Source: Candidatus Poribacteria bacterium
GTDB taxonomy: Bacteria; Poribacteria; WGA-4E; WGA-3G
Direction of reading: 5' to 3'
DNA length: 64,000 nucleotides
Assembly (NCBI GenBank): GCA_963663765.2
Contig: CAXXUA010000013.1
Coordinates: forward strand, 320,001 to 384,000
Within the stretch, counting starts at the first letter, position 1, and every line of letters begins with the position of its first letter. Positions 57,315-63,749 of the stretch are shown here, piece by piece. The notes below the pieces were generated by a model, which saw only the letters and a program-made list of their open reading frames with translations, was not told the DNA's origin and ran no database searches. A program made the position numbers and the translations under genes.

Positions 57315-58613
57315 TTAGAAATAGTTTGCCACAAGGACTAAATCAAGGATGTTCACCTCTCCATCGGTGTTTACATCACCTGTAATTCCAGGACCTCTTT
57401 GTCCGAAAGCTTGACCGACAATTACTAAGTCTTTTATGTTCACAAACCCATCATCGTTAACATCTTCATTTCTTGGAATAATCTGAACAATTGTAACATT
57501 ATCAGTGCCAAAACCGAGTTCATAGGTTTTCAGGAGTGTCTCATCTGAATCCATCACAATCATTGTTGACAATCCGCTTTGTGTCCAATCAGGTTTTGTT
57601 ATGTAGAGATTACCATCATGTCCGAAAGCCATTCCAGACCCACCAGCAAACGCACTGAGTGTGTTGTTTCGATCGCGTATCCATTCTTTGGTATGGACAT
57701 CGTAGATTAGCAATCCAGGATGCTGCCACCCTCCTTGAATAAACAGTTGTTTCTCCGAATTGATTGCTATTGCACCCGGTGTCGTCCTTGTGTTAACCTC
57801 AGTGATGATTTCATCAGTAGTCGTGTCAATTAGCACGAGTCTGCCCGTTATCAAATTGTAATCACCTGTGGTCTTTACGATAACAGTAGATTCACCGTCA
57901 TTCACTATTCCAGTAGCGTTTATTGGCATTGGAATAGATTTTAACACAGTGTCAGTCTGTGTATCAATTACTGTCACGCTGCTCTGATGGTAAATGGATT
58001 TACCTGCAAGCGCATCCCACTCCCAAGCGGGATTGGTCACATACGCTTTTCCATTCAAGAGTGTGATCCCCGTAGTTTTGTTCATGGATGGGTCGGTGAT
58101 AACTTTGGTCACTTTGCGTGTATCAATATTAACAACCAATACTTGATGAGCATTGTCACAGGTAACGTACATCTTAGTAGAATTAATAAGTGCCATGTTC
58201 TGTGGATAAGCTCCAGGAGGGATTGCAATTCTACCAACATACTTTCTATTTTCAAGATTAACAATTTCAATGGTATCGCTTTGGTCTCCAGATAACCAAT
58301 CAAAACGTGTTATATATGCAAGATGTCCATGAACCAGAATGTCAGTAGGAACATCCCCTATAGTGACAATCTCATCGTCAACAGCGCGTTGTAAATTCGG
58401 TTCATCTAAATCAATGATTGAGATCGTTGAAGTGATATGCCAATCTTCTCTATCAAGTGAATTCAAAACGACAGCAAGATTTTGGACATCTGATTGAGCA
58501 AGCGTGGAACCTACGAGGGATGTGAAAAGTAGAGCACTGATGAGTATCAGTGAATGTAGTTTATGTGTTGTGTAGAAACCGAAATGTCGCCTAAAGAAAA
58601 AACCTGTTTGCAT
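57315..58613 (-). CDS. YncE/BtuG-like beta-propeller with a C-terminal dockerin-like double EF-hand
   Basis: KMYVT/KAYVTN/VTVIDT blades; DVNDDGFVNIKDL..GDVNTDGEVNILDL; ATG at 58613 after GGAGG. Confidence 0.78.
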   Translation of the reverse strand: MQTGFFFRRHFGFYTTHKLHSLILISALLFTSLVGSTLAQSDVQNLAVVLNSLDREDWHITSTISIIDLDEPNLQRAVDDEIVTIGDVPTDILVHGHLAYITRFDWLSGDQSDTIEIVNLENRKYVGRIAIPPGAYPQNMALINSTKMYVTCDNAHQVLVVNIDTRKVTKVITDPSMNKTTGITLLNGKAYVTNPAWEWDALAGKSIYHQSSVTVIDTQTDTVLKSIPMPINATGIVNDGESTVIVKTTGDYNLITGRLVLIDTTTDEIITEVNTRTTPGAIAINSEKQLFIQGGWQHPGLLIYDVHTKEWIRDRNNTLSAFAGGSGMAFGHDGNLYITKPDWTQSGLSTMIVMDSDETLLKTYELGFGTDNVTIVQIIPRNEDVNDDGFVNIKDLVIVGQAFGQRGPGITGDVNTDGEVNILDLVLVANYF

Positions 58614-58629
58614 TAATACCTCCGTAATG

Positions 58630-58668
58630 AAACAAGAAACCCCTGCTTTCATAGGAAAGACAGGGGAC
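58630..58668 (-). terminator. Intrinsic terminator in the riboswitch expression platform
   Basis: Minus strand CCCCTGTCTTTC-CTAT-GAAAGCAGGGG-TTTCTTGTTT, just upstream of the SD. Confidence 0.65.
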
Positions 58669-58809
58669 AAGGGACACTTCGTATAACTATGATCCTGATA
58701 TTTAGGTTGATTGAGAAATATTTTATCAGTATTTCTATTCTATTTTGTCAGGATTACGTTGTGCTTTATTCCACCGCTTTCCCGCGAAAGCAGATTTGTG
58801 AAACACGAT

Positions 58810-59014
58810 CCAGGCAGGTCTCCTGACTTCCGATTAATTGGGTAGTTTACAATCAAAACTGGTACTACCTATCCCGCTGTGCCTTCCCATCAACCATTGA
58901 CAGTGGACTTTTACAGCGGTTATTCCTATTTAGGAATAAATCGTTTACAGTGGCGGGGCCGTGGCGGATTTTCACCGCGCTTCCCTATTCTCCGAACTTC
59001 GGCACCTGAACCGT
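58810..59014 (-). ncRNA. Cobalamin (AdoCbl) riboswitch
   Basis: Minus strand AGGTGC...AATAGGGAAGCGCGGTGAAAATCCGCCACGGCCCCGCCACTGTAA...CCACTG...TGGGAAGG...AAGTCAGGAGACCTGCCTG (B12 box). Confidence 0.95.
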
Positions 59015-59269
59015 TCATTATATTTAATTATTGATGTGTAAATTATATCAGATGACAGTATATTATGCAAATTTTTCTGAAATTAGAGGTGTGTAAAGTT
59101 TTTGTAGAAACCCTGATATTATATTGAAATCTAAAAAATATGTTTACATTTATTTGAATTTTGCTATATTTTAGTGTAGTTTGGACAGTTTATTACAAAT
59201 ATAAGTTGATGAGAAATTGGTTCACCGCTTATGTTACCAAATCAATACACTACGAACAAAACGCAAACC

Positions 59270-59425
59270 CTCTTTGCTCCAGCGGAGCATTATGTTTATA
59301 GCCAAATTGTCAACTGACAACTCCGCTCCAGCGGAGCGGTATGTGAGTTACAACACATAGCAATCCGCTGGAGTACAAGAATGGGGGATACCATTTTATA
59401 TAAACATAGTTCTCCGCTGGCGTGC
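59270..59425. repeat. Cluster of GCTCCAGCGGAGC palindromic REP-like repeats
   Basis: GCTCCAGCGGAGC twice, plus TCCGCTGG partial copies. Confidence 0.6.
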
Positions 59426-59589
59426 GGTATTTTATAAAGTTTCACGAATATGCGATCTAGTAGATAAATAGAAACACCTTTGAAAACAACTAGCAACAAA
59501 CGGAATATGACCAAACTATAGTATTTTTTTAAACCGTTCTTAAGAATTTCCTACTCATTATAACCGAAATCTAATTAGGAATTCTGTAT

Positions 59590-61374
59590 ATGTACTTCAA
59601 TTTTACGCCTATAAGCGACCTGAAAGATGAAAATCTCGTCCCGCTTGTCCAAGCTCGTGACGAAACAGCATTCAAGGAATTGATGGATCGTTACAATCCA
59701 AAAATCTGGTTTGTAGTTAACGAAAATTCAAGACAACGCCAAGATGCTGAAGAGATCCTTATGGACATCTGGATGGCAGTTTGGGATAACATTATCGGTT
59801 TACGAAAACCAGAAAGTTTTGGCGGGTGGTTACGCAGAATCGCACATAACGCCTGCAAAAGATACTACGCATCGGGCAAAAATCAGCATAGTGAAATACT
59901 ATTAGATTATGATGAACTCACTCTACAGATTGATAGAGAAGCGGAACAACGTTTTCAAAACGCAAGACTACGATCTGATGCAAGAGAAGCAGTACATCAA
60001 CTTCCACAACGCATAGTGTCTGTCGCGAGATTATACTATCTTGAGCAGTGGAACGTCAATGAGATCGCTACCGAACTCAACTTAGCTGTCGGTACTGTAA
60101 AGTCAAAACTCAGTGAAGTACGGAAACTGCTAAGAAAAGAATTTGAGGTTGAACCTATAAGGAGAGAAACTATGTCAGCTAACATGCAAAACAATGAAAA
60201 CGAACAGAAAAAAATAAAAATTATAGGTGTTGGCGGTGCTGGATGTAACACTCTTAAACGCCTAATTGATGAAAGTTGGAGAAACACTGAATTCTATGTT
60301 GTTGATACTGATAAGGAAACCCTTAGTTCTTGCAATGAGGTGACACAAGTACAAATCGGTATAAACAATCTTAAAGGGCAAAGTACCAACGGAAACCTGG
60401 AACTTGGGAAAAGGGCAGCTGCGGAAAGTATGGAAGAACTACGTGCTATCGTCTCAGACGCAAGTCTGGTTTTTGTAATTGCAGGTATGGGGGGAGGAAC
60501 TGGTACTGCGGTTGCACCAGTTATTACTTCACTGGCACGCCAACAAAAAGCATTAACGATCTGTATGGCAACACGTCCATTTGAAGTAGAAGGTAAACTA
60601 CGCTCAGAACAGGCAGAAGAAGGGATAAGGGAACTGCACAGTAACGAGCATCCCCAAGCTGATGCAGTTATCATTGTCCCAAACCAGCGAATACTCGATT
60701 TAGTTGACGTGGATTTACCTATACCCCAAGCTTTCTTGGAAAGTGATGAAATCTTGGTACAAGGTGTAAGTCTTATCGCAGAAATGGTTACATATAATGG
60801 TGAAATAAATGTAGACTTAGAAGATATTCAATCAATGCTACAAAACAAAGGAACTGTTCTAATGAGTTTCGGTAAAGCTAAAGGCGAAAATAGAGCAGGA
60901 ATCGCTGCACGGAACGCAATATCCTCACCCTTATTCGAGGAGAGTAAAGTCAATGAGGAATCTGCAGTCATTGTTGGTATCGCATCTCCACCAGATTTTA
61001 CCATGCATGATTTAGATGCAGTCATGAAGGAAATAGTTAAAGAAACCCCACATGATCAGTGTATGTTTGGATTAGTATATAAAAAAGAACTGGAGGCAAC
61101 TGGTGAAGTGATAGTAACAATCATTGCAACAATGCCTGATTCTTCTAAACAGCAAGTACTTACAATTGACACCAGTAAGGACACAGAAGCTCCCACCGAT
61201 GATAAGACCGTTTCCGCATCAAAAACACAAGAATTTACACATCAACCCAAATACAGTAATTTTGATCTTTCATATCTTATAAATCAAGTACCCGTAAATG
61301 TGCAAACAACGATTGAACAAGGTATTACTGCCACAGTAAAAAACCAACTTCAGTCAGAGAAAATACACAGTTGA
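59590..61374 (+). CDS. ECF sigma factor - FtsZ-like GTPase fusion protein
   Basis: aa 1-186: sigma2 (AF.EL..RY, DAEE, WLRRIAHN) and sigma4 (EIA..L....GTVKS.L). aa ~207-515: KIKIIGVGGAGCN, AGMGGGTGT, RPFEVEG, VPNQR, GEINVDLED, VIVTIIAT. Confidence 0.9.
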   Translation: MYFNFTPISDLKDENLVPLVQARDETAFKELMDRYNPKIWFVVNENSRQRQDAEEILMDIWMAVWDNIIGLRKPESFGGWLRRIAHNACKRYYASGKNQHSEILLDYDELTLQIDREAEQRFQNARLRSDAREAVHQLPQRIVSVARLYYLEQWNVNEIATELNLAVGTVKSKLSEVRKLLRKEFEVEPIRRETMSANMQNNENEQKKIKIIGVGGAGCNTLKRLIDESWRNTEFYVVDTDKETLSSCNEVTQVQIGINNLKGQSTNGNLELGKRAAAESMEELRAIVSDASLVFVIAGMGGGTGTAVAPVITSLARQQKALTICMATRPFEVEGKLRSEQAEEGIRELHSNEHPQADAVIIVPNQRILDLVDVDLPIPQAFLESDEILVQGVSLIAEMVTYNGEINVDLEDIQSMLQNKGTVLMSFGKAKGENRAGIAARNAISSPLFEESKVNEESAVIVGIASPPDFTMHDLDAVMKEIVKETPHDQCMFGLVYKKELEATGEVIVTIIATMPDSSKQQVLTIDTSKDTEAPTDDKTVSASKTQEFTHQPKYSNFDLSYLINQVPVNVQTTIEQGITATVKNQLQSEKIHS

Positions 61375-61389
61375 TATAATTATTACTGT

Positions 61390-61990
61390 GTTGTGGTAGG
61401 GGTTTCCAACCCCTACCCTTCTACCGGTAGAAGCGACCCGGGGAATGCCTTAATGGCTTTCATACCGTTGATTTGGTGCTTTGTAAGCGCGCTGGCACAT
61501 TAAGACCTAACAGAGCGCTTACAAAGCACGCCTACCGTGTGAGAAATATTTATTACCGAATTAATAAATTAATCTTCATCCAACCTCTACATCTTGCCGC
61601 TTCCCTCGCTTGTGGTCTGGTATCTCTTGTGGTCTGGTATCTCTTGTAGGAGGGGTTTCCAACCCCGATTTCTGAATCATGTATGACGCGAAATGCACAC
61701 ATCAAAAACCTTTGATGATGTAAATCCAGAAAATCTGTAAATCCCGGGGAATGCCATAAGGCATTCATACCCAGGGAATGCTTTATAGCATTCATACCGT
61801 TGATTTCTTGATTTGTAAATCATGGTTCAGAAAAAAAACACAGATAAAAAAACCAAGCCAATAAACCTAATGCAAATGTCTTATCCTGAAAATCTGTAAA
61901 TCCTGGTTCAGACAAAAAATTCGCGTAATCCGCGTAATCCGAGAATCCGTTCAACAAGTACAAAATCCAAAAAATCCGTGATACAAAACA
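61390..61990. repeat. Mosaic of REP-like palindromes, the 35-bp module and AATCCG(C/T)-type short repeats
   Basis: GTAGGGGTTTCCAACCCCTAC, GCGCTTACAAAGCACGCCTAC, GTAGGAGGGGTTTCCAACCCCGA, CGCGTAATCCGCGTAATCCG. Confidence 0.65.
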
Positions 61991-62111
61991 ACATGCAAAA
62001 TTTATTACACAACCATATAAATTGCAATTTCAGCGTTTTTCTGTTATATTTAAATAGCATTGAAATTGCACAGGATCAACAACCAATATCGTAAGACTAA
62101 GGAGAATAACA

Positions 62112-63749
62112 ATGAAAGCATCAGAACTGATGGTCAAGTGTTTAGAAAATGAAGATGTTAAATACATTTTTGGATTACCGGGTGAAGAAAACATGGATAT
62201 GTTAGATGCTTTATTAGAATCTAACATCCAATTTATTCAAACCCGAGATGAACGCGGAGCTGCTTTCATGGCAGATGTCTACGGCCGTTTGACTGGTAAG
62301 GCAGGTGTCTGTCTTGCAACCCTCGGTCCTGGTGCAATGAACCTTGTCACAGGTGTCGCAGACGCAAATATGGATAGAGCACCGCTTGTCGCAATCACTG
62401 GACAAGCAAGTTTAGATAGGATGCACAAAGAATCACATCAATACATGGATGTTGTCTCTGTCTTCAAACCCATGACAAAATGGAATACGCTTCTGCATAT
62501 CCCAGAAATTATCCCCGAATCCGTTAGTAAAGCATTCAAAACCGCCACAAGTGAAAAACCAGGTGCAACCCATATAGACTTTCCTGAAGACGTTGCAAAA
62601 ATGCAAATTGATGCTGAACCTATTCCTCATGACTTTCCCAGTGAAGCGGAACCTGTCGCAGCATGCCTCGAACGCGCCGCACAACTCATTAATCAAGCAA
62701 AACAACCGATTATCCTTGCAGGAAATGGGGTCGTCCGTCAAAACGCTTCCAGAATTCTAACGCAATTTGCTGAGATGACAAACATCCCTGTCGCACATAC
62801 TTTTATGGGGAAGGGTAGTATTCCTTGGACACATAGACTGTCGCTCCTATCCGTTGGACTACAGGCAAACGACTATGTCTCATGCGGTTTCGACCGCGCA
62901 GACCTTGTCATCGCTATCGGATATGACATCGTTGAATACCATCCAAGATTATGGAATCCAAACCGTGACAAAAAACTGGTACATATTGATACTGAACCCA
63001 GTGAAAGCGACGCATCCTACGTCACAGATGTGGAAATGGTTGGAAACATAAGACAGAGTGTCAGACATTTGATGGCAGAAGAAATAGAACCAAAAGATGC
63101 CGGATACGCTTCGGATACATTGCGAAAAATTATCCTTGAACAACTAAATGAACACAGAGATGACAAAGATTTTCCAATGAAACCACAAAAAATACTTAGC
63201 GATATTCGTTCCGTTCTCAAAGAAGATGATATACTCATCTCTGATGTCGGCGCACACAAAATGTGGATCGCTCGGATGTATCCATGCTACAAACCTAACA
63301 CATGTATTATCTCAAATGGGTTTGCATCAATGGGAATAGCAGTTCCGGGCGCGTACGTGGCAAAACTTATTTACCCAGAACGAAAATGTATCGCAGTCTG
63401 TGGAGATGGTGGATTCCTTATGAACTCACAGGAACTTGAAACCGCTACAAGAACAGGTGTACCATTTGTTACGCTCATCTTCAATGATGAAGCTTACGGA
63501 CTTATTGAATGGAAACAAATGAACGGTTTTGGAAGACCCGCAAACATTGATTTTACAAATCCTGATTTTGTCAAATACGCTGAAGCGTTCGGAGCAAAAG
63601 GCTACCGTGTTGAAGGCAGCGACGAACTCGTACCAATTCTAAATGACGCATTCAGTCAGAACGTACCCTCTATCATTGATTGTCCAGTAAATTATGACGA
63701 AAATCTACGCTTGACAGATGCTCTTGGTAAATTAACTTGTCCAATTTAA
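62112..63749 (+). CDS. Acetolactate synthase large subunit
   Basis: FGLPGEEN, TLGPGA, ESHQ, SDVGAHKMW, GDGGFLMNSQELET. Confidence 0.92.
   Translation: MKASELMVKCLENEDVKYIFGLPGEENMDMLDALLESNIQFIQTRDERGAAFMADVYGRLTGKAGVCLATLGPGAMNLVTGVADANMDRAPLVAITGQASLDRMHKESHQYMDVVSVFKPMTKWNTLLHIPEIIPESVSKAFKTATSEKPGATHIDFPEDVAKMQIDAEPIPHDFPSEAEPVAACLERAAQLINQAKQPIILAGNGVVRQNASRILTQFAEMTNIPVAHTFMGKGSIPWTHRLSLLSVGLQANDYVSCGFDRADLVIAIGYDIVEYHPRLWNPNRDKKLVHIDTEPSESDASYVTDVEMVGNIRQSVRHLMAEEIEPKDAGYASDTLRKIILEQLNEHRDDKDFPMKPQKILSDIRSVLKEDDILISDVGAHKMWIARMYPCYKPNTCIISNGFASMGIAVPGAYVAKLIYPERKCIAVCGDGGFLMNSQELETATRTGVPFVTLIFNDEAYGLIEWKQMNGFGRPANIDFTNPDFVKYAEAFGAKGYRVEGSDELVPILNDAFSQNVPSIIDCPVNYDENLRLTDALGKLTCPI

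What the first reader, a model, noticed from the sequence alone, without database searches (positions are those of the whole stretch)
59590..61374. ECF sigma factor fused in-frame to an FtsZ-like GTPase
Seen in sequence: one 594-aa ORF. Its first ~186 aa have sigma2 and sigma4 ECF motifs. The rest carries FtsZ hallmarks: GVGGAGCN, the tubulin signature AGMGGGTGT, RPFEVEG..R, VPN, and a T7 loop GEINVDLED with the N-x-D-x-x-D residues intact. The GAG loop is altered (GQSTNGN), the usual C-terminal DIPxFLR peptide is absent, and no dcw genes are nearby. Known: ECF C-terminal extensions can act as built-in regulators; FtsZ binds GTP and polymerises. Inference: this sigma factor could be controlled by GTP binding or by co-polymerisation with the division ring, linking transcription to nucleotide state or cell division. 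I do not know of a characterised example.
Basis: partly seen in the sequence, partly recalled or inferred. Interest (0 to 1): 0.92.

Follow-up and report, generated by a model that had tools for sequence, protein, structure and literature searches.

The report
Sigma factor fused to FtsZ paralogue
A sponge-associated bacterium (Candidatus Poribacteria) carries an intact, conserved gene that joins a transcription-initiation (ECF sigma) factor to a diverged copy of its own cell-division protein FtsZ; no such pairing turned up in the literature I could search, and it may tie gene expression to the cell cycle.

Summary
Window 59590-61374 (+) is one 594-aa ORF with ECF sigma2+sigma4, a disordered linker, and a complete FtsZ GTPase plus C-subdomain. 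It is not an artefact. The genome has a normal ftsA-ftsZ plus three sigma-FtsZ genes. Contigs from three public runs bridge the junction without indels. Junction-spanning homologues occur in 101 of 176 genomes of the phylum, all in one family. The usual form is a ~1430-aa sigma-FtsZ-DNA polymerase III alpha triple fusion. The window gene belongs to an old short lineage that keeps only a ~33-residue PHP relic. The FtsZ part arose once from the lineage's own FtsZ. Sigma and GTPase domains are under purifying selection. New features: a promoter-like block shared only by the six genes with this sigma head; an internal Shine-Dalgarno plus ATG in 34 of 34 loci; and a predicted sigma2 contact on the remodelled T3/H3/H4 face. 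Best reading (about 45%): an ECF sigma whose built-in regulatory extension is an FtsZ paralogue. GTP control or co-polymerisation remains untested.

The parts
59522..61413 (+). Gene-sized segment duplicated elsewhere in the genome (contig C6 275948-277839, 96.6% nt identity over 1892 bp): promoter-like block, ORF and hairpin
   Evidence: local blastn; the C6 copy is also a 594-aa ORF and sits behind the same ABC-permease gene as the orthologue in relative G022
59524..59564 (+). Promoter-like block: T-tract 59524-59530, AAACC 59531-59535, 18-nt spacer, CTCATTATAAC 59554-59564
   Evidence: Sequence. Conserved in 13 of 13 class A loci and 9 further class A/B loci. Present before all 6 sigma-head genes of this genome. 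Genome-wide 8 hits, of which 6 are these genes; block-shuffled genomes gave 1,5,2,1,4
59576..59592 (+). Ribosome-binding site (TAGGAA) and ATG start codon (59590-59592)
59680..59874 (+). ECF sigma region 2 (residues 31-95; core-binding/-10 helices DAEEILMDIWMAVW, FGGWLRRIAHNACKRYY)
   Evidence: Pfam; NCBIfam; AF2 pLDDT about 80-87; dN/dS 0.10-0.17 over residues 1-190
59986..60138 (+). ECF sigma region 4 (residues 133-183, helix-turn-helix for the -35 element)
   Evidence: Pfam; AF2 pLDDT 83-90
60151..60204 (+). Disordered linker (residues 188-205) holding an internal Shine-Dalgarno-like AAGGAG (60159-60164) and an in-frame ATG for M195 (60172-60174)
   Evidence: pLDDT 28. SD-like run plus ATG exactly 13 codons before the first FtsZ strand in 34 of 34 loci, although the peptide varies. 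Background 10.3% of internal ATGs. M195 is at least 90% conserved in 97 proteins
60211..60705 (+). FtsZ/tubulin GTPase domain (residues 208-372): T1 GVGGAGCN, altered T3 GQSTNGNLELG, signature AGMGGGTGT
   Evidence: Pfam; PDB FtsZ 4m8i_A E 1.3e-66; pLDDT above 90; dN/dS 0.10-0.19
60364..60651 (+). Predicted sigma2-docking face of the FtsZ-like domain (residues 260-354: T3 loop, helix H3, helix H4)
   Evidence: complex prediction; class-specific substitutions E278A, R281M, Q285R, A308V, I311V
60799..60825 (+). T7 synergy loop GEINVDLED with N407, D409, D412
   Evidence: in 97 family members N 70, D 71, D 96
60850..61131 (+). FtsZ C-terminal subdomain (residues 421-514)
   Evidence: Pfam; dN/dS 0.17-0.42 against orthologues, 1.36 between the two copies in this genome
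61231..61329 (+). Relic of the N-terminus of a DNA polymerase III alpha PHP domain (residues 548-580), within the tail 517-594
   Evidence: aligned to the PHP start EFVHLHNHSEYS... of 54 long forms; helix 569-593 in the model; tail dN/dS 0.34 against G016
61396..61419 (+). Hairpin after the stop codon (GTAGGGGTT-TCC-AACCCCTAC); most of it lies inside the duplicated segment
   Evidence: sequence; not followed by a T run, so its terminator function is not shown

Best explanation
This is a genuine gene for a composite regulator. An ECF-type sigma factor (sigma2+sigma4) is joined by a flexible ~18-residue linker to a diverged paralogue of the organism's own FtsZ. That paralogue has the complete GTPase and C-terminal subdomains but no C-terminal linker or FtsA-binding peptide. 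The protein ends in a short relic of a polymerase PHP domain. SHOWN: it belongs to a family confined to one family of Candidatus Poribacteria. Its commonest, ancestral-looking form is sigma-FtsZ-PolIII-alpha lacking the polymerase C-terminus. The window gene is a recent duplicate within an old short lineage that lost the polymerase. The FtsZ part descends from a single duplication of the lineage's FtsZ, and sigma and GTPase parts are under purifying selection. INFERRED mechanism: it works like the known ECF sigma factors whose regulatory C-terminal extension replaces a separate anti-sigma factor. The FtsZ-like domain docks through its remodelled T3-loop/H3/H4 face on sigma2. It sets whether sigma can engage RNA polymerase, depending on the domain's nucleotide state or on its engagement with cellular FtsZ. 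Sigma activity would then report division (and, in long forms, replication) status. The sigma drives at least the promoter shared by the six genes that carry this sigma head (positive autoregulation). The conserved internal SD-ATG probably also yields free FtsZ-like protein (about 400 aa), which could titrate or co-assemble with the fused form.
For: Architecture and intactness. Three sigma-FtsZ paralogues plus a canonical ftsA-ftsZ in the genome. Junction confirmed in independent contigs. Conservation: full-length matches in 19 of 24 same-genus genomes; 101 of 112 family genomes at E<=1e-99; junction-spanning matches in 100 of 111 other genomes of the family and 0 of 64 genomes of ten other families. 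Single origin from the lineage's own FtsZ: fused FtsZ domains form one clade (SH-aLRT 90), sister to the genus's canonical FtsZ (99). Purifying selection: sigma 0.10-0.17, GTPase 0.10-0.19. Sigma is bona fide by sequence: TIGR02937 above its cut-off; best PDB sigma matches are ECF sigmas. ECF-like bipartite promoter block before all six sigma-head genes and essentially nowhere else. Sigma2 to FtsZ-like contact: ipSAE 0.71 (runs 0.71, 0.70, 0.74) against a best control of 0.00. That mark was reached by 58 of 80 solved complexes and 2 of 110 mismatched pairs. Runs agree in at least 86% of contacts and the partner's pLDDT is at least 78. My own alignment was used, so the calibration counts hold only roughly. 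Class-specific substitutions fall on 5 of 19 predicted interface residues against 17 of 291 others (Fisher one-sided p=0.007; positions and rows are not independent). GGGTGT signature near-invariant; T7 N, D and D kept in the window protein. Precedent for regulatory ECF extensions: passages of PMC8999054.
Against: No biochemical or expression data exist, and no RNA run holds the locus. That this sigma recognises the shared promoter block is inference, since the block could be inherited by duplication and read by another sigma. No further genes with the motif were found, so no regulon is known. AlphaFold2 models give low pTM (0.54 for the window protein, 0.43 for the class B paralogue), so they do not place the domains confidently relative to each other. 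GTP control is doubtful: the T3 loop is non-canonical and T1 position 216 is Asp, Asn or Glu in 47 of 97 members, although it is Gly in the window protein. The polymerase part of the long forms keeps its catalytic Asp residues (50-54 of 54) and the PHP motif, which a purely regulatory-extension model does not explain. The FtsZ C-subdomain shows dN/dS 1.36 between the two copies in this genome (19 non-synonymous against 4 synonymous changes).
Confidence: 0.45

Rival explanations
1. Tethering model: the sigma head is mainly an RNA-polymerase-docking (or promoter-docking) anchor. It brings an FtsZ-like GTPase and, in long forms, an active DnaE-type polymerase core to transcribing or promoter-bound RNA polymerase. 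The output would then be a DNA or cytoskeletal transaction rather than a regulon.
For: The fused polymerase keeps the PHP motif (54 of 54) and the catalytic Asp residues (53, 50, 54 and 53 of 54) and all core Pfam domains. No regulon was found beyond the family's own promoters. Sigma-PolIII-alpha fusions without FtsZ also exist (P0197-P0199).
Against: The window's lineage lost the polymerase long ago yet keeps sigma and FtsZ under purifying selection. The same head is fused to WD40 propellers, which have no enzymatic output. The fused polymerase lacks about 300 C-terminal residues relative to the stand-alone DnaE.
Confidence: 0.15
2. Integrated-decoy (guard) model: duplicated copies of frequently attacked housekeeping proteins (FtsZ, DnaE) and WD40 binders are fused to a sigma factor as baits. 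Binding of a phage or competitor inhibitor to the bait frees the sigma and triggers a transcriptional response.
For: The extensions are paralogues of the cell's own FtsZ (about 50% identity) and DnaE (64-70%) rather than foreign domains. The same head carries alternative protein-binding modules. The FtsZ C-subdomain diverges fast between recent copies (dN/dS 1.36). That phages inhibit FtsZ is recalled knowledge and comes from no call.
Against: No PADLOC defence family matches P0001, the class B protein or the long form (0 families each). The neighbours are not defence genes. The orthologues are syntenic and chromosomal. No downstream effector genes with the promoter motif were found.
Confidence: 0.12
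3. Two-product gene whose main actor is the free FtsZ-like protein made from the internal start. This would be a tail-less FtsZ paralogue that tunes or caps Z-ring assembly, like the truncated FtsZ paralogues of Hyphomicrobiales. The sigma-fused isoform would be a minor, coupling or autoregulatory form.
For: SD-like run plus ATG in 34 of 34 loci against a 10.3% background, with a variable peptide. The ATG lies 13 codons before the first strand; the canonical FtsZ's own start lies about 15 codons before the same strand. The class B paralogue keeps the nucleotide face but ends before the T7 loop, as a filament capper would. Abstracts of bioRxiv 10.1101/2025.09.29.679267 and of 10.1101/412759 (listing) report that truncated FtsZ paralogues co-polymerise and can inhibit division.
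Against: The frame between sigma and FtsZ is kept open in all intact orthologues over saturated synonymous divergence. That would be unnecessary for a separate product. The same SD-ATG also precedes the WD40 part of at least one sister gene (L018). Initiation at the internal ATG is not shown.
Confidence: 0.13
4. Neutral or decaying chimera, or an assembly artefact, without a function of its own.
For: The window's form has lost the polymerase. Some relatives show further truncations or a split copy (G020). Between the two copies in this genome, selection on the C-subdomain looks relaxed.
Against: The family is present in 101 of 112 family genomes. dN/dS is 0.10-0.19 on sigma and GTPase. Independent contigs confirm the junction. 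The short-form clade is deep, with internal branches of 0.29-0.35 substitutions per site, and keeps open frames of 575-602 aa.
Confidence: 0.04

Closest known systems
[quoted passage not shown]
   Same: A sigma2+sigma4-only sigma, no adjacent anti-sigma gene, and a C-terminal domain predicted to contact the sigma domains. Sister genes with the same head carry WD40 propellers, as described for ECF57.
   Different: The extension is a complete FtsZ paralogue and, ancestrally, also a DnaE polymerase core. The words FtsZ, tubulin and polymerase III occur 0 times in that review and 0 times in the main text of the ECF reclassification paper PMC7826278 (supplements not visible). A conserved internal SD-ATG sits at the domain boundary.
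Canonical cell-division FtsZ (this genome's own copy, L001; solved structures such as 4m8i_A)
   Same: Same fold and domain order, about 50% identity to the genome's own FtsZ, GGGTGT signature, T7 loop N-x-D-x-x-D.
   Different: Below the ftsZ equivalog cut-off (277.8 against 295.2 bits). No C-terminal linker or FtsA-binding peptide. Not in the dcw region. T1 (GGAGCN) and T3 (GQSTNGN) loops altered. Much faster evolving. N-terminally fused to a sigma factor.
Truncated or tail-less FtsZ paralogues of Hyphomicrobiales (Agrobacterium FtsZ1/FtsZ3): abstract of bioRxiv 10.1101/2025.09.29.679267; abstract of 10.1101/412759 as shown in the listing
   Same: Lineage-specific FtsZ duplications that lack C-terminal parts and are proposed to tune division. 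Class B (GTPase domain only) resembles them most.
   Different: Those paralogues are stand-alone proteins. Here every paralogue is covalently joined to an ECF sigma factor.
Sporulation coupling of sigma-F activation to the asymmetric Z ring via SpoIIE in Bacillus subtilis (PMC4714977, abstract seen in the listing)
   Same: In concept, sigma activity made dependent on the division apparatus.
   Different: That coupling is indirect, through a phosphatase and a partner-switching cascade with separate proteins. Here the sigma and an FtsZ-like domain are one polypeptide.
DNA polymerase III alpha subunit (DnaE), relevant to the long orthologues and to the window protein's C-terminal relic
   Same: PHP, polymerase core, fingers and HhH domains with catalytic Asp residues conserved; 64-70% identical to the stand-alone DnaE of the same genomes.
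   Different: Lacks about 300 C-terminal residues and is fused behind sigma-FtsZ. In the window gene only residues 548-580 remain as a relic.

Membership tests
ECF (group 4) sigma-70 family | Only regions sigma2 and sigma4, both recognisable by family models | tested here: met
   TIGR02937 70.5 bits against a cut-off of 42.9; Pfam Sigma70_r2 33.4 against 24; Sigma70_r4_2 25.6 against 25.7, marginally under; no region 3 or 1.1 hit
ECF (group 4) sigma-70 family | Autoregulated promoter with an AAC-containing -35 element and a short -10 element | tested here: inconclusive
   T-tract-AAACC-N16-20-CTCWWW precedes all 6 sigma-head genes and accounts for 6 of 8 genome-wide hits. Recognition by this sigma is not shown
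ECF (group 4) sigma-70 family | Binds RNA polymerase core and directs promoter-specific initiation | not testable with these tools
   needs biochemistry
ECF sigma with regulatory C-terminal extension | No cognate anti-sigma gene adjacent; the extension contacts the sigma domains | tested here: inconclusive
   No anti-sigma-like neighbour. Complex prediction 0.71 against a best control of 0.00 (58 of 80 solved and 2 of 110 mismatched reach the mark; at least 86% contact agreement; partner pLDDT at least 78). But AF2 pTM is only 0.54 and 0.43
ECF57 (WD40-type extensions) | WD40-like extension and two conserved cysteines proposed to link sigma2 and sigma4 (PMC8999054 passage) | tested here: inconclusive
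   Sister genes carry WD40. Only one conserved Cys (C89) lies in the sigma part of 97 class A and 72 class B proteins. No ECF-group models were available
FtsZ (cell-division orthologue, TIGR00065 equivalog) | Score above the equivalog cut-off | tested here: not met
   277.8 against 295.2 bits; the genome's canonical copy scores 390.1
FtsZ (cell-division orthologue, TIGR00065 equivalog) | Conserved C-terminal peptide for membrane anchors (FtsA and others), and dcw/ftsA linkage | tested here: not met
   Absent from P0001; present as WDIPAFLRV next to ftsA in L001
FtsZ/tubulin superfamily | GTPase domain with the GGGTG(S/T)G signature plus the FtsZ_C subdomain and a T7 loop | tested here: met
   Pfam PF00091 2.1e-37 and PF12327 1.7e-13; signature and T7 residues present; confident FtsZ-like fold in the model
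FtsZ/tubulin superfamily | GTP binding, GTPase activity and polymerisation | not testable with these tools
   T1 and T3 loops deviate from canonical; needs biochemistry
DNA polymerase III alpha (DnaE) | PHP, polymerase core and finger domains | tested here: not met
   Only a 33-residue relic of the PHP N-terminus remains in the window protein, and no remnant lies downstream. The long orthologue G022 has all these domains

The most novel reading that the evidence does not exclude
The sigma-head family is a sensor system built from integrated copies of the cell's own core machines. Duplicated FtsZ and DnaE (and WD40 binders) would serve as baits or state sensors welded to an ECF sigma factor. 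Perturbation of the divisome or replisome, by cell-cycle state, phage inhibitors or competitor toxins in the sponge microbiome, would then be converted directly into transcription. The internal start would supply free bait that sets the threshold. This would be a bacterial counterpart of integrated decoys, and the first sigma factor regulated by a cytoskeletal paralogue.
Probability: 0.15. Interest if true: 0.92.

Novelty: new variant of a known kind. Interest (0 to 1): 0.8.

Why it matters
ECF sigma factors with fused regulatory domains are a known design, but the known extensions are small ligand- or protein-binding modules. Here the extension is a full paralogue of the division GTPase FtsZ and, ancestrally, also a catalytically intact-looking DNA polymerase III alpha core. 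It is conserved in about 90% of the genomes of one poribacterial family. If the sigma is regulated by the FtsZ-like domain, this is a direct, single-polypeptide link between transcription initiation and the division or replication machinery. It could be tested with ordinary biochemistry in a heterologous host. It also offers natural FtsZ variants with remodelled T1/T3/H3 surfaces, and a clear case of housekeeping-gene duplicates being recruited as signalling domains. The conserved in-frame SD-ATG at the domain boundary suggests programmed production of two isoforms. Automatic annotation names these genes 'FtsZ', 'sigma-70 family' or 'DNA polymerase III alpha', so the architecture is not visible in the names that the sources give.

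Tried and rejected
Assembly artefact or private read-through: rejected.

DnaE remnant downstream of the window ORF: a local tblastn of the G022 polymerase part against 61100-62200 gave only chance-level hits (E 0.067 and 6.4).

Regulon search with the promoter motif. The strict pattern gave 3 hits, all sigma-head genes. The medium pattern gave 8 hits, 6 of them sigma-head genes, against 1-5 in shuffles. The loose pattern without the T-tract gave 8 hits against 12-23 in shuffles, so there was no enrichment. No further targets were found.

Defence-system membership: PADLOC gave 0 families for P0001, the class B protein and the long form. The one hit, HEAT-ARM_XIII, fell on the WD40 part of a sister gene.

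Sigma-70-type promoter and terminator scan of 58600-62200: counts were at shuffle level (11 against 10.4; 5 against 2.8) and not informative.

Expression: no RNA holder is listed. Run X1 is only guessed to be RNA; it gave one 246-nt contig on 59899-60144 at depth 2.2, which I do not count as evidence.

AlphaFold2 monomer models were used to look for rigid domain packing. pTM was 0.54 and 0.43, so they give no confident relative placement. No PAE or coordinates were available to compare with the interface.

Search for the same architecture outside Poribacteria: of the best 150 of 49,923 representatives I scanned 10 candidates. Only P0227 is another sigma plus FtsZ-N fusion (unnamed 2078-nt contig). 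Four are FtsZ-FtsZ tandems and five are FtsZ with unannotated N-terminal extensions. Fusions ranking below the best 150 would have been missed.

None of the nine found a sigma-FtsZ or sigma-DnaE fusion. Supplementary tables of the ECF classification (PMC7826278) could not be opened and might list such an extension.

Rows dropped. For the tree and the motif tables, my T1-motif filter kept only proteins with G-[VIL]-G-G-[AG]-G. That left 7 of 25 sampled long forms and 31 short forms, and genus g13-type proteins (GVGDAG) were left out. In one search only 18 of 33 loci were parsed; the rest were recovered for the SD-ATG count, but their promoters were not examined. The script stopped with an error after 21 rows, and completed the set and re-did L015.
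Full report
OBSERVATION. Window 59590..61374 (+) is a single 594-aa ORF with an ATG start (translation P0001). Pfam finds Sigma70_r2 (31-95), Sigma70_r4_2 (133-181, 0.1 bit under its cut-off), the Tubulin/FtsZ GTPase domain (208-372, E 2.1e-37) and FtsZ_C (421-514, E 1.7e-13). NCBIfam places residues 27-184 in the sigma70-ECF superfamily, above the cut-off. Residues 196-528 match the ftsZ equivalog model at 277.8 bits, below its 295.2-bit cut-off.

NOT AN ARTEFACT. The genome (6.35 Mb, 15 contigs) has four FtsZ-type genes.
- A canonical 447-aa FtsZ lies next to ftsA and ends in WDIPAFLRV (390 bits).
- The window gene.
- A 95%-identical 594-aa copy lies on contig C6.
- A 406-aa gene on contig C5 encodes the same kind of sigma head plus only the FtsZ N-terminal GTPase domain; it ends after helix H7, before the T7 loop.

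The window and C6 copies share a gene-sized 1892-bp segment (59522-61413, 96.6% nt identity) bounded by short dispersed repeats. The C6 copy sits behind the same ABC-permease gene as the orthologue in relative G022, so the window copy is the recent duplicate. Contigs of three public runs from two studies each cover 59522-60792 in one 1271-nt piece with 0 gaps. No insertion or deletion is reported inside the ORF. Paired variant pieces further on match the two paralogues.

THE FAMILY. Sources that give a name call the relatives Candidatus Poribacteria and label them 'FtsZ', 'sigma-70 family sigma factor', 'DNA polymerase III subunit alpha' or 'hypothetical'. Of the 120 best near-length hits, 119 carry both a sigma Pfam domain and PF00091. 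About 45 clusters of roughly 490-714 aa also have FtsZ_C (class A, short). Seventy clusters of 396-443 aa lack it (class B).

Among longer proteins, 75 clusters of 1248-1743 aa are sigma + FtsZ + PHP + DNA_pol3_alpha + finger, with or without HHH_6. Three clusters are sigma-PolIII-alpha without FtsZ. The G022 orthologue (1435 aa) shows this order explicitly.

In whole genomes:
- A full-length match in one frame is found in 19 of 24 same-genus genomes, plus a split copy in G020. It is found in 0 of 16 genomes of three other families of the order.
- At E<=1e-99 it is found in 101 of 112 genomes of the family: genera g1 36/39, g13 62/65, g10 1/1, g12 1/1, g9 0/3, g11 0/2.
- A junction-spanning query (residues 100-330) matches 100 of 111 other genomes of the family and 0 of 64 genomes of ten other families of the phylum.

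The same sigma head (52-58% identity, same linker) is fused to WD40 propellers in three more genes of this genome. All other ECF sigmas of the genome are under 31% identical, and many of them are TM-anchored long fusions.

An exhaustive search of 1.84 billion representatives listed the three poribacterial classes at the top. I scanned 10 further candidates from its best 150. One was a distant sigma plus FtsZ-N protein of unknown origin (P0227, 35% identity). Four were FtsZ-FtsZ tandems and five were FtsZ with unannotated N-terminal extensions.

ORIGIN. In a tree of 70 FtsZ domains, all sigma-fused domains form one clade (SH-aLRT 90). That clade is sister to the genus's canonical FtsZ (99) and sits inside the FtsZ of other families of the order (100). 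Class B is one clade (99). Class A is one clade (100) apart from one long-branched row. The short forms are nested among the long ones as a 26-row clade (87), which contains the window protein, plus a 4-row clade. Proteins with a g13-type T1 loop were left out by my filter.

The long forms' polymerase part is 64-70% identical to the stand-alone DnaE of the same genomes and lacks about 300 C-terminal residues. In 54 long forms the PHP motif HLHNHSEYS is invariant apart from one Ser-to-Thr change. The catalytic Asp residues are kept in 53, 50, 54 and 53 of 54. The window protein's residues 548-580 align with the first ~33 residues of that PHP domain. The relic is conserved within the short clade, whereas other short forms are evidently more recent truncations. 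So the window gene is a derived, polymerase-less member of a sigma-FtsZ-DnaE family.

SELECTION AND RESIDUES. These are pairwise Nei-Gojobori estimates.
- Against the G016 orthologue (dS 0.49): sigma 0.17, FtsZ N-domain 0.15, C-subdomain 0.42, tail 0.34.
- Against more distant orthologues (dS saturated): 0.10-0.24 for the three domains.
- Between the two copies in this genome: sigma 0.10, N-domain 0.19, but C-subdomain 1.36 (19 non-synonymous, 4 synonymous). The derived changes are split between both copies.

In 97 class A proteins the GGGTGT signature is near-invariant. D412 is kept in 96, N407 in 70 and D409 in 71. T1 position 216 is Gly in 50, Asp in 42, Asn in 4 and Glu in 1. The T3 loop is non-canonical throughout. 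The window protein is among the most FtsZ-like members (G216, N407, D409, D412).

LINKER. The AlphaFold2 model has confident sigma2, sigma4 and FtsZ folds joined by a disordered segment at 188-205 (pLDDT 28). It also has a disordered stretch at 517-566 and a terminal helix at 569-593. Mean pLDDT is 75.4 and pTM 0.54. Within the linker, AAGGAG (60159-60164) lies 7 nt before an in-frame ATG (M195, 60172-60174). In 34 of 34 class A and B loci from four genera, an ATG lies exactly 13 codons before the first FtsZ strand. Each is preceded by a GGAG/GAGG/GGGG-type run, although the peptide there varies widely (PIRRET, TIKGET, EVKRGTT, PERGRT, LIGGNA and others). Only 10.3% of 14,558 internal in-frame ATGs in long ORFs of this genome have such a run. 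AGG, used here, is the rarest Arg codon at 8%. This points to nucleotide-level constraint, that is, a functional internal initiation site. It is inferred, not shown.

PROMOTER. All 13 class A loci first examined share a ~75-nt upstream block. The shared core, T-tract-AAACC-N16-20-CTC(W)(W)(W), precedes all six sigma-head genes of this genome, 53-67 nt before the start codon. It also precedes nine further class A/B loci. Genome-wide it occurs 8 times, and 6 of these are those six genes (shuffles 1,5,2,1,4). A looser pattern is not enriched. The layout resembles an ECF promoter (AAC-containing -35 element, short -10 element), which is my recollection of ECF promoters. It suggests autoregulation, but no other targets were found.

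INTERFACE. In a controlled prediction, chain 1 was the FtsZ-like residues 196-522 and chain 2 was sigma residues 1-192, both taken from the 97-row family alignment. It scored 0.71 (runs 0.71, 0.70, 0.74) against a best control of 0.00. The mark was reached by 58 of 80 solved complexes and 2 of 110 mismatched pairs. The runs agree in at least 86% of contacts and the partner's pLDDT is at least 78. Because my own alignment was used, the counts hold only roughly. The model supports binding but does not show it.

The interface is FtsZ-like residues 260, 271-285, 307-318, 348 and 354 (T3 loop, H3, H4) against sigma residues 5, 15-24 and 66-72. As a separate sequence-based check, positions conserved in class A but different from a conserved canonical residue number 22 of 310. 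Five of them lie among the 19 interface residues (E278A, R281M, Q285R, A308V, I311V) against 17 of 291 elsewhere (Fisher one-sided p=0.007). Positions and rows are not independent. Against a rigid arrangement, AF2 pTM is 0.54 for the window protein and 0.43 for the class B paralogue.

CONTEXT. The neighbours are a PQQ-type propeller, a membrane protein without a Pfam family, a dockerin protein and a TPP enzyme. No PADLOC defence family matches the fused proteins. No RNA run holds the locus.

INTERPRETATION. The most economical reading (about 45%) is an ECF sigma factor whose built-in regulatory or sensory extension is an FtsZ paralogue that docks on sigma2. It would be autoregulated from a family-specific promoter and probably co-expressed with a free FtsZ-like isoform. 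The rivals are:
- a tethering role for the sigma head (about 15%);
- a two-product gene whose main actor is the free tail-less FtsZ paralogue (about 13%);
- an integrated-decoy sensor (about 12%);
- a neutral chimera (about 4%).

The altered T1 and T3 loops weaken it.

COMPARISON WITH WHAT IS KNOWN. ECF sigmas with regulatory extensions are established. The review says at least 26 ECF groups have N- or C-terminal extensions, and it names ECF41, ECF42, ECF238 and ECF57 with WD40-like repeats (PMC8999054, passages). Neither that review nor the main text of the reclassification paper (PMC7826278, term search only) contains FtsZ, tubulin or polymerase III. Nine answered full-text searches found no description of a sigma-FtsZ or sigma-DnaE fusion. 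Stand-alone truncated FtsZ paralogues that tune division are described for Hyphomicrobiales (abstract). I therefore rate this a new variant of a known kind: an ECF sigma with a C-terminal extension of an unprecedented type.

Noticed in passing
window 59088-59529 and 61425-61840: Both intergenic flanks of the gene are built from short palindromic units (for example GGGAATGCC-ATAA-GGCATTC and GGGGTT-TCC-AACCCC). These units match very many places across the contigs of the genome, and the summed contig depth over them reached 19,000-186,000 in the metagenome runs. They look like REP/MITE-type repeats, and the gene-sized duplication ends exactly at them.
   Followed up: partly
G000 contig C11 44000-56000 (L018) and 75000-81000 (L019): A tandem array of sigma-WD40 genes (852-902 aa) carries the same sigma head, linker and promoter block. 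One array member (L018 5533..7962, 809 aa) starts inside sigma region 2, and a further WD40 ORF has no sigma head.
   Followed up: partly
relatives, e.g. L017 4097..8404 (G022); P0121-P0195: The 1342-1442-aa sigma-FtsZ-DNA polymerase III alpha triple fusion keeps its polymerase catalytic residues. Three clusters (P0197-P0199) are sigma-PolIII-alpha without FtsZ.
   Followed up: partly
G000 contig C5 312224-315679 and 1491083-1494631: This genome has two full-length stand-alone DnaE genes (1152- and 1183-aa frames), whereas relatives G003 and G016 have one. The extra copy lies just downstream of an ECF sigma plus a second ORF that I did not annotate (309596-310906).
   Followed up: no
L041-L050 (genus g13 class A loci): In genus g13 the phosphate-binding T1 loop reads GVG(D/N)AGGN instead of GVGGAG(G/C)N. 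In the 97-protein alignment the position is Asp in 42 and Asn in 4, which questions nucleotide binding in about half of the family.
   Followed up: partly
P0227 (456 aa, unnamed 2078-nt contig): A distant (35-37% identity) sigma2+sigma4+FtsZ-N fusion has a more typical ECF head and a different linker. The sigma plus FtsZ GTPase-domain architecture may therefore have arisen, or persisted, outside this family.
   Followed up: partly
P0202, P0210, P0229, P0244; P0200: Other unusual FtsZ architectures appear in the public libraries. There are head-to-tail FtsZ-FtsZ tandem proteins (731-840 aa). There is also a 1323-aa Woesearchaeota protein that combines FtsZ domains with AAA ATPase domains and a type I restriction specificity (Methylase_S) domain.
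   Followed up: no
G000, 12 of the 26 sigma-head tblastn hits: Many other ECF sigmas of this genome (under 31% identity to the window's head) are fused to a hydrophobic, TM-like segment and to extensions that bring the proteins to about 700-1060 aa. I judged the TM segments by eye.
   Followed up: no
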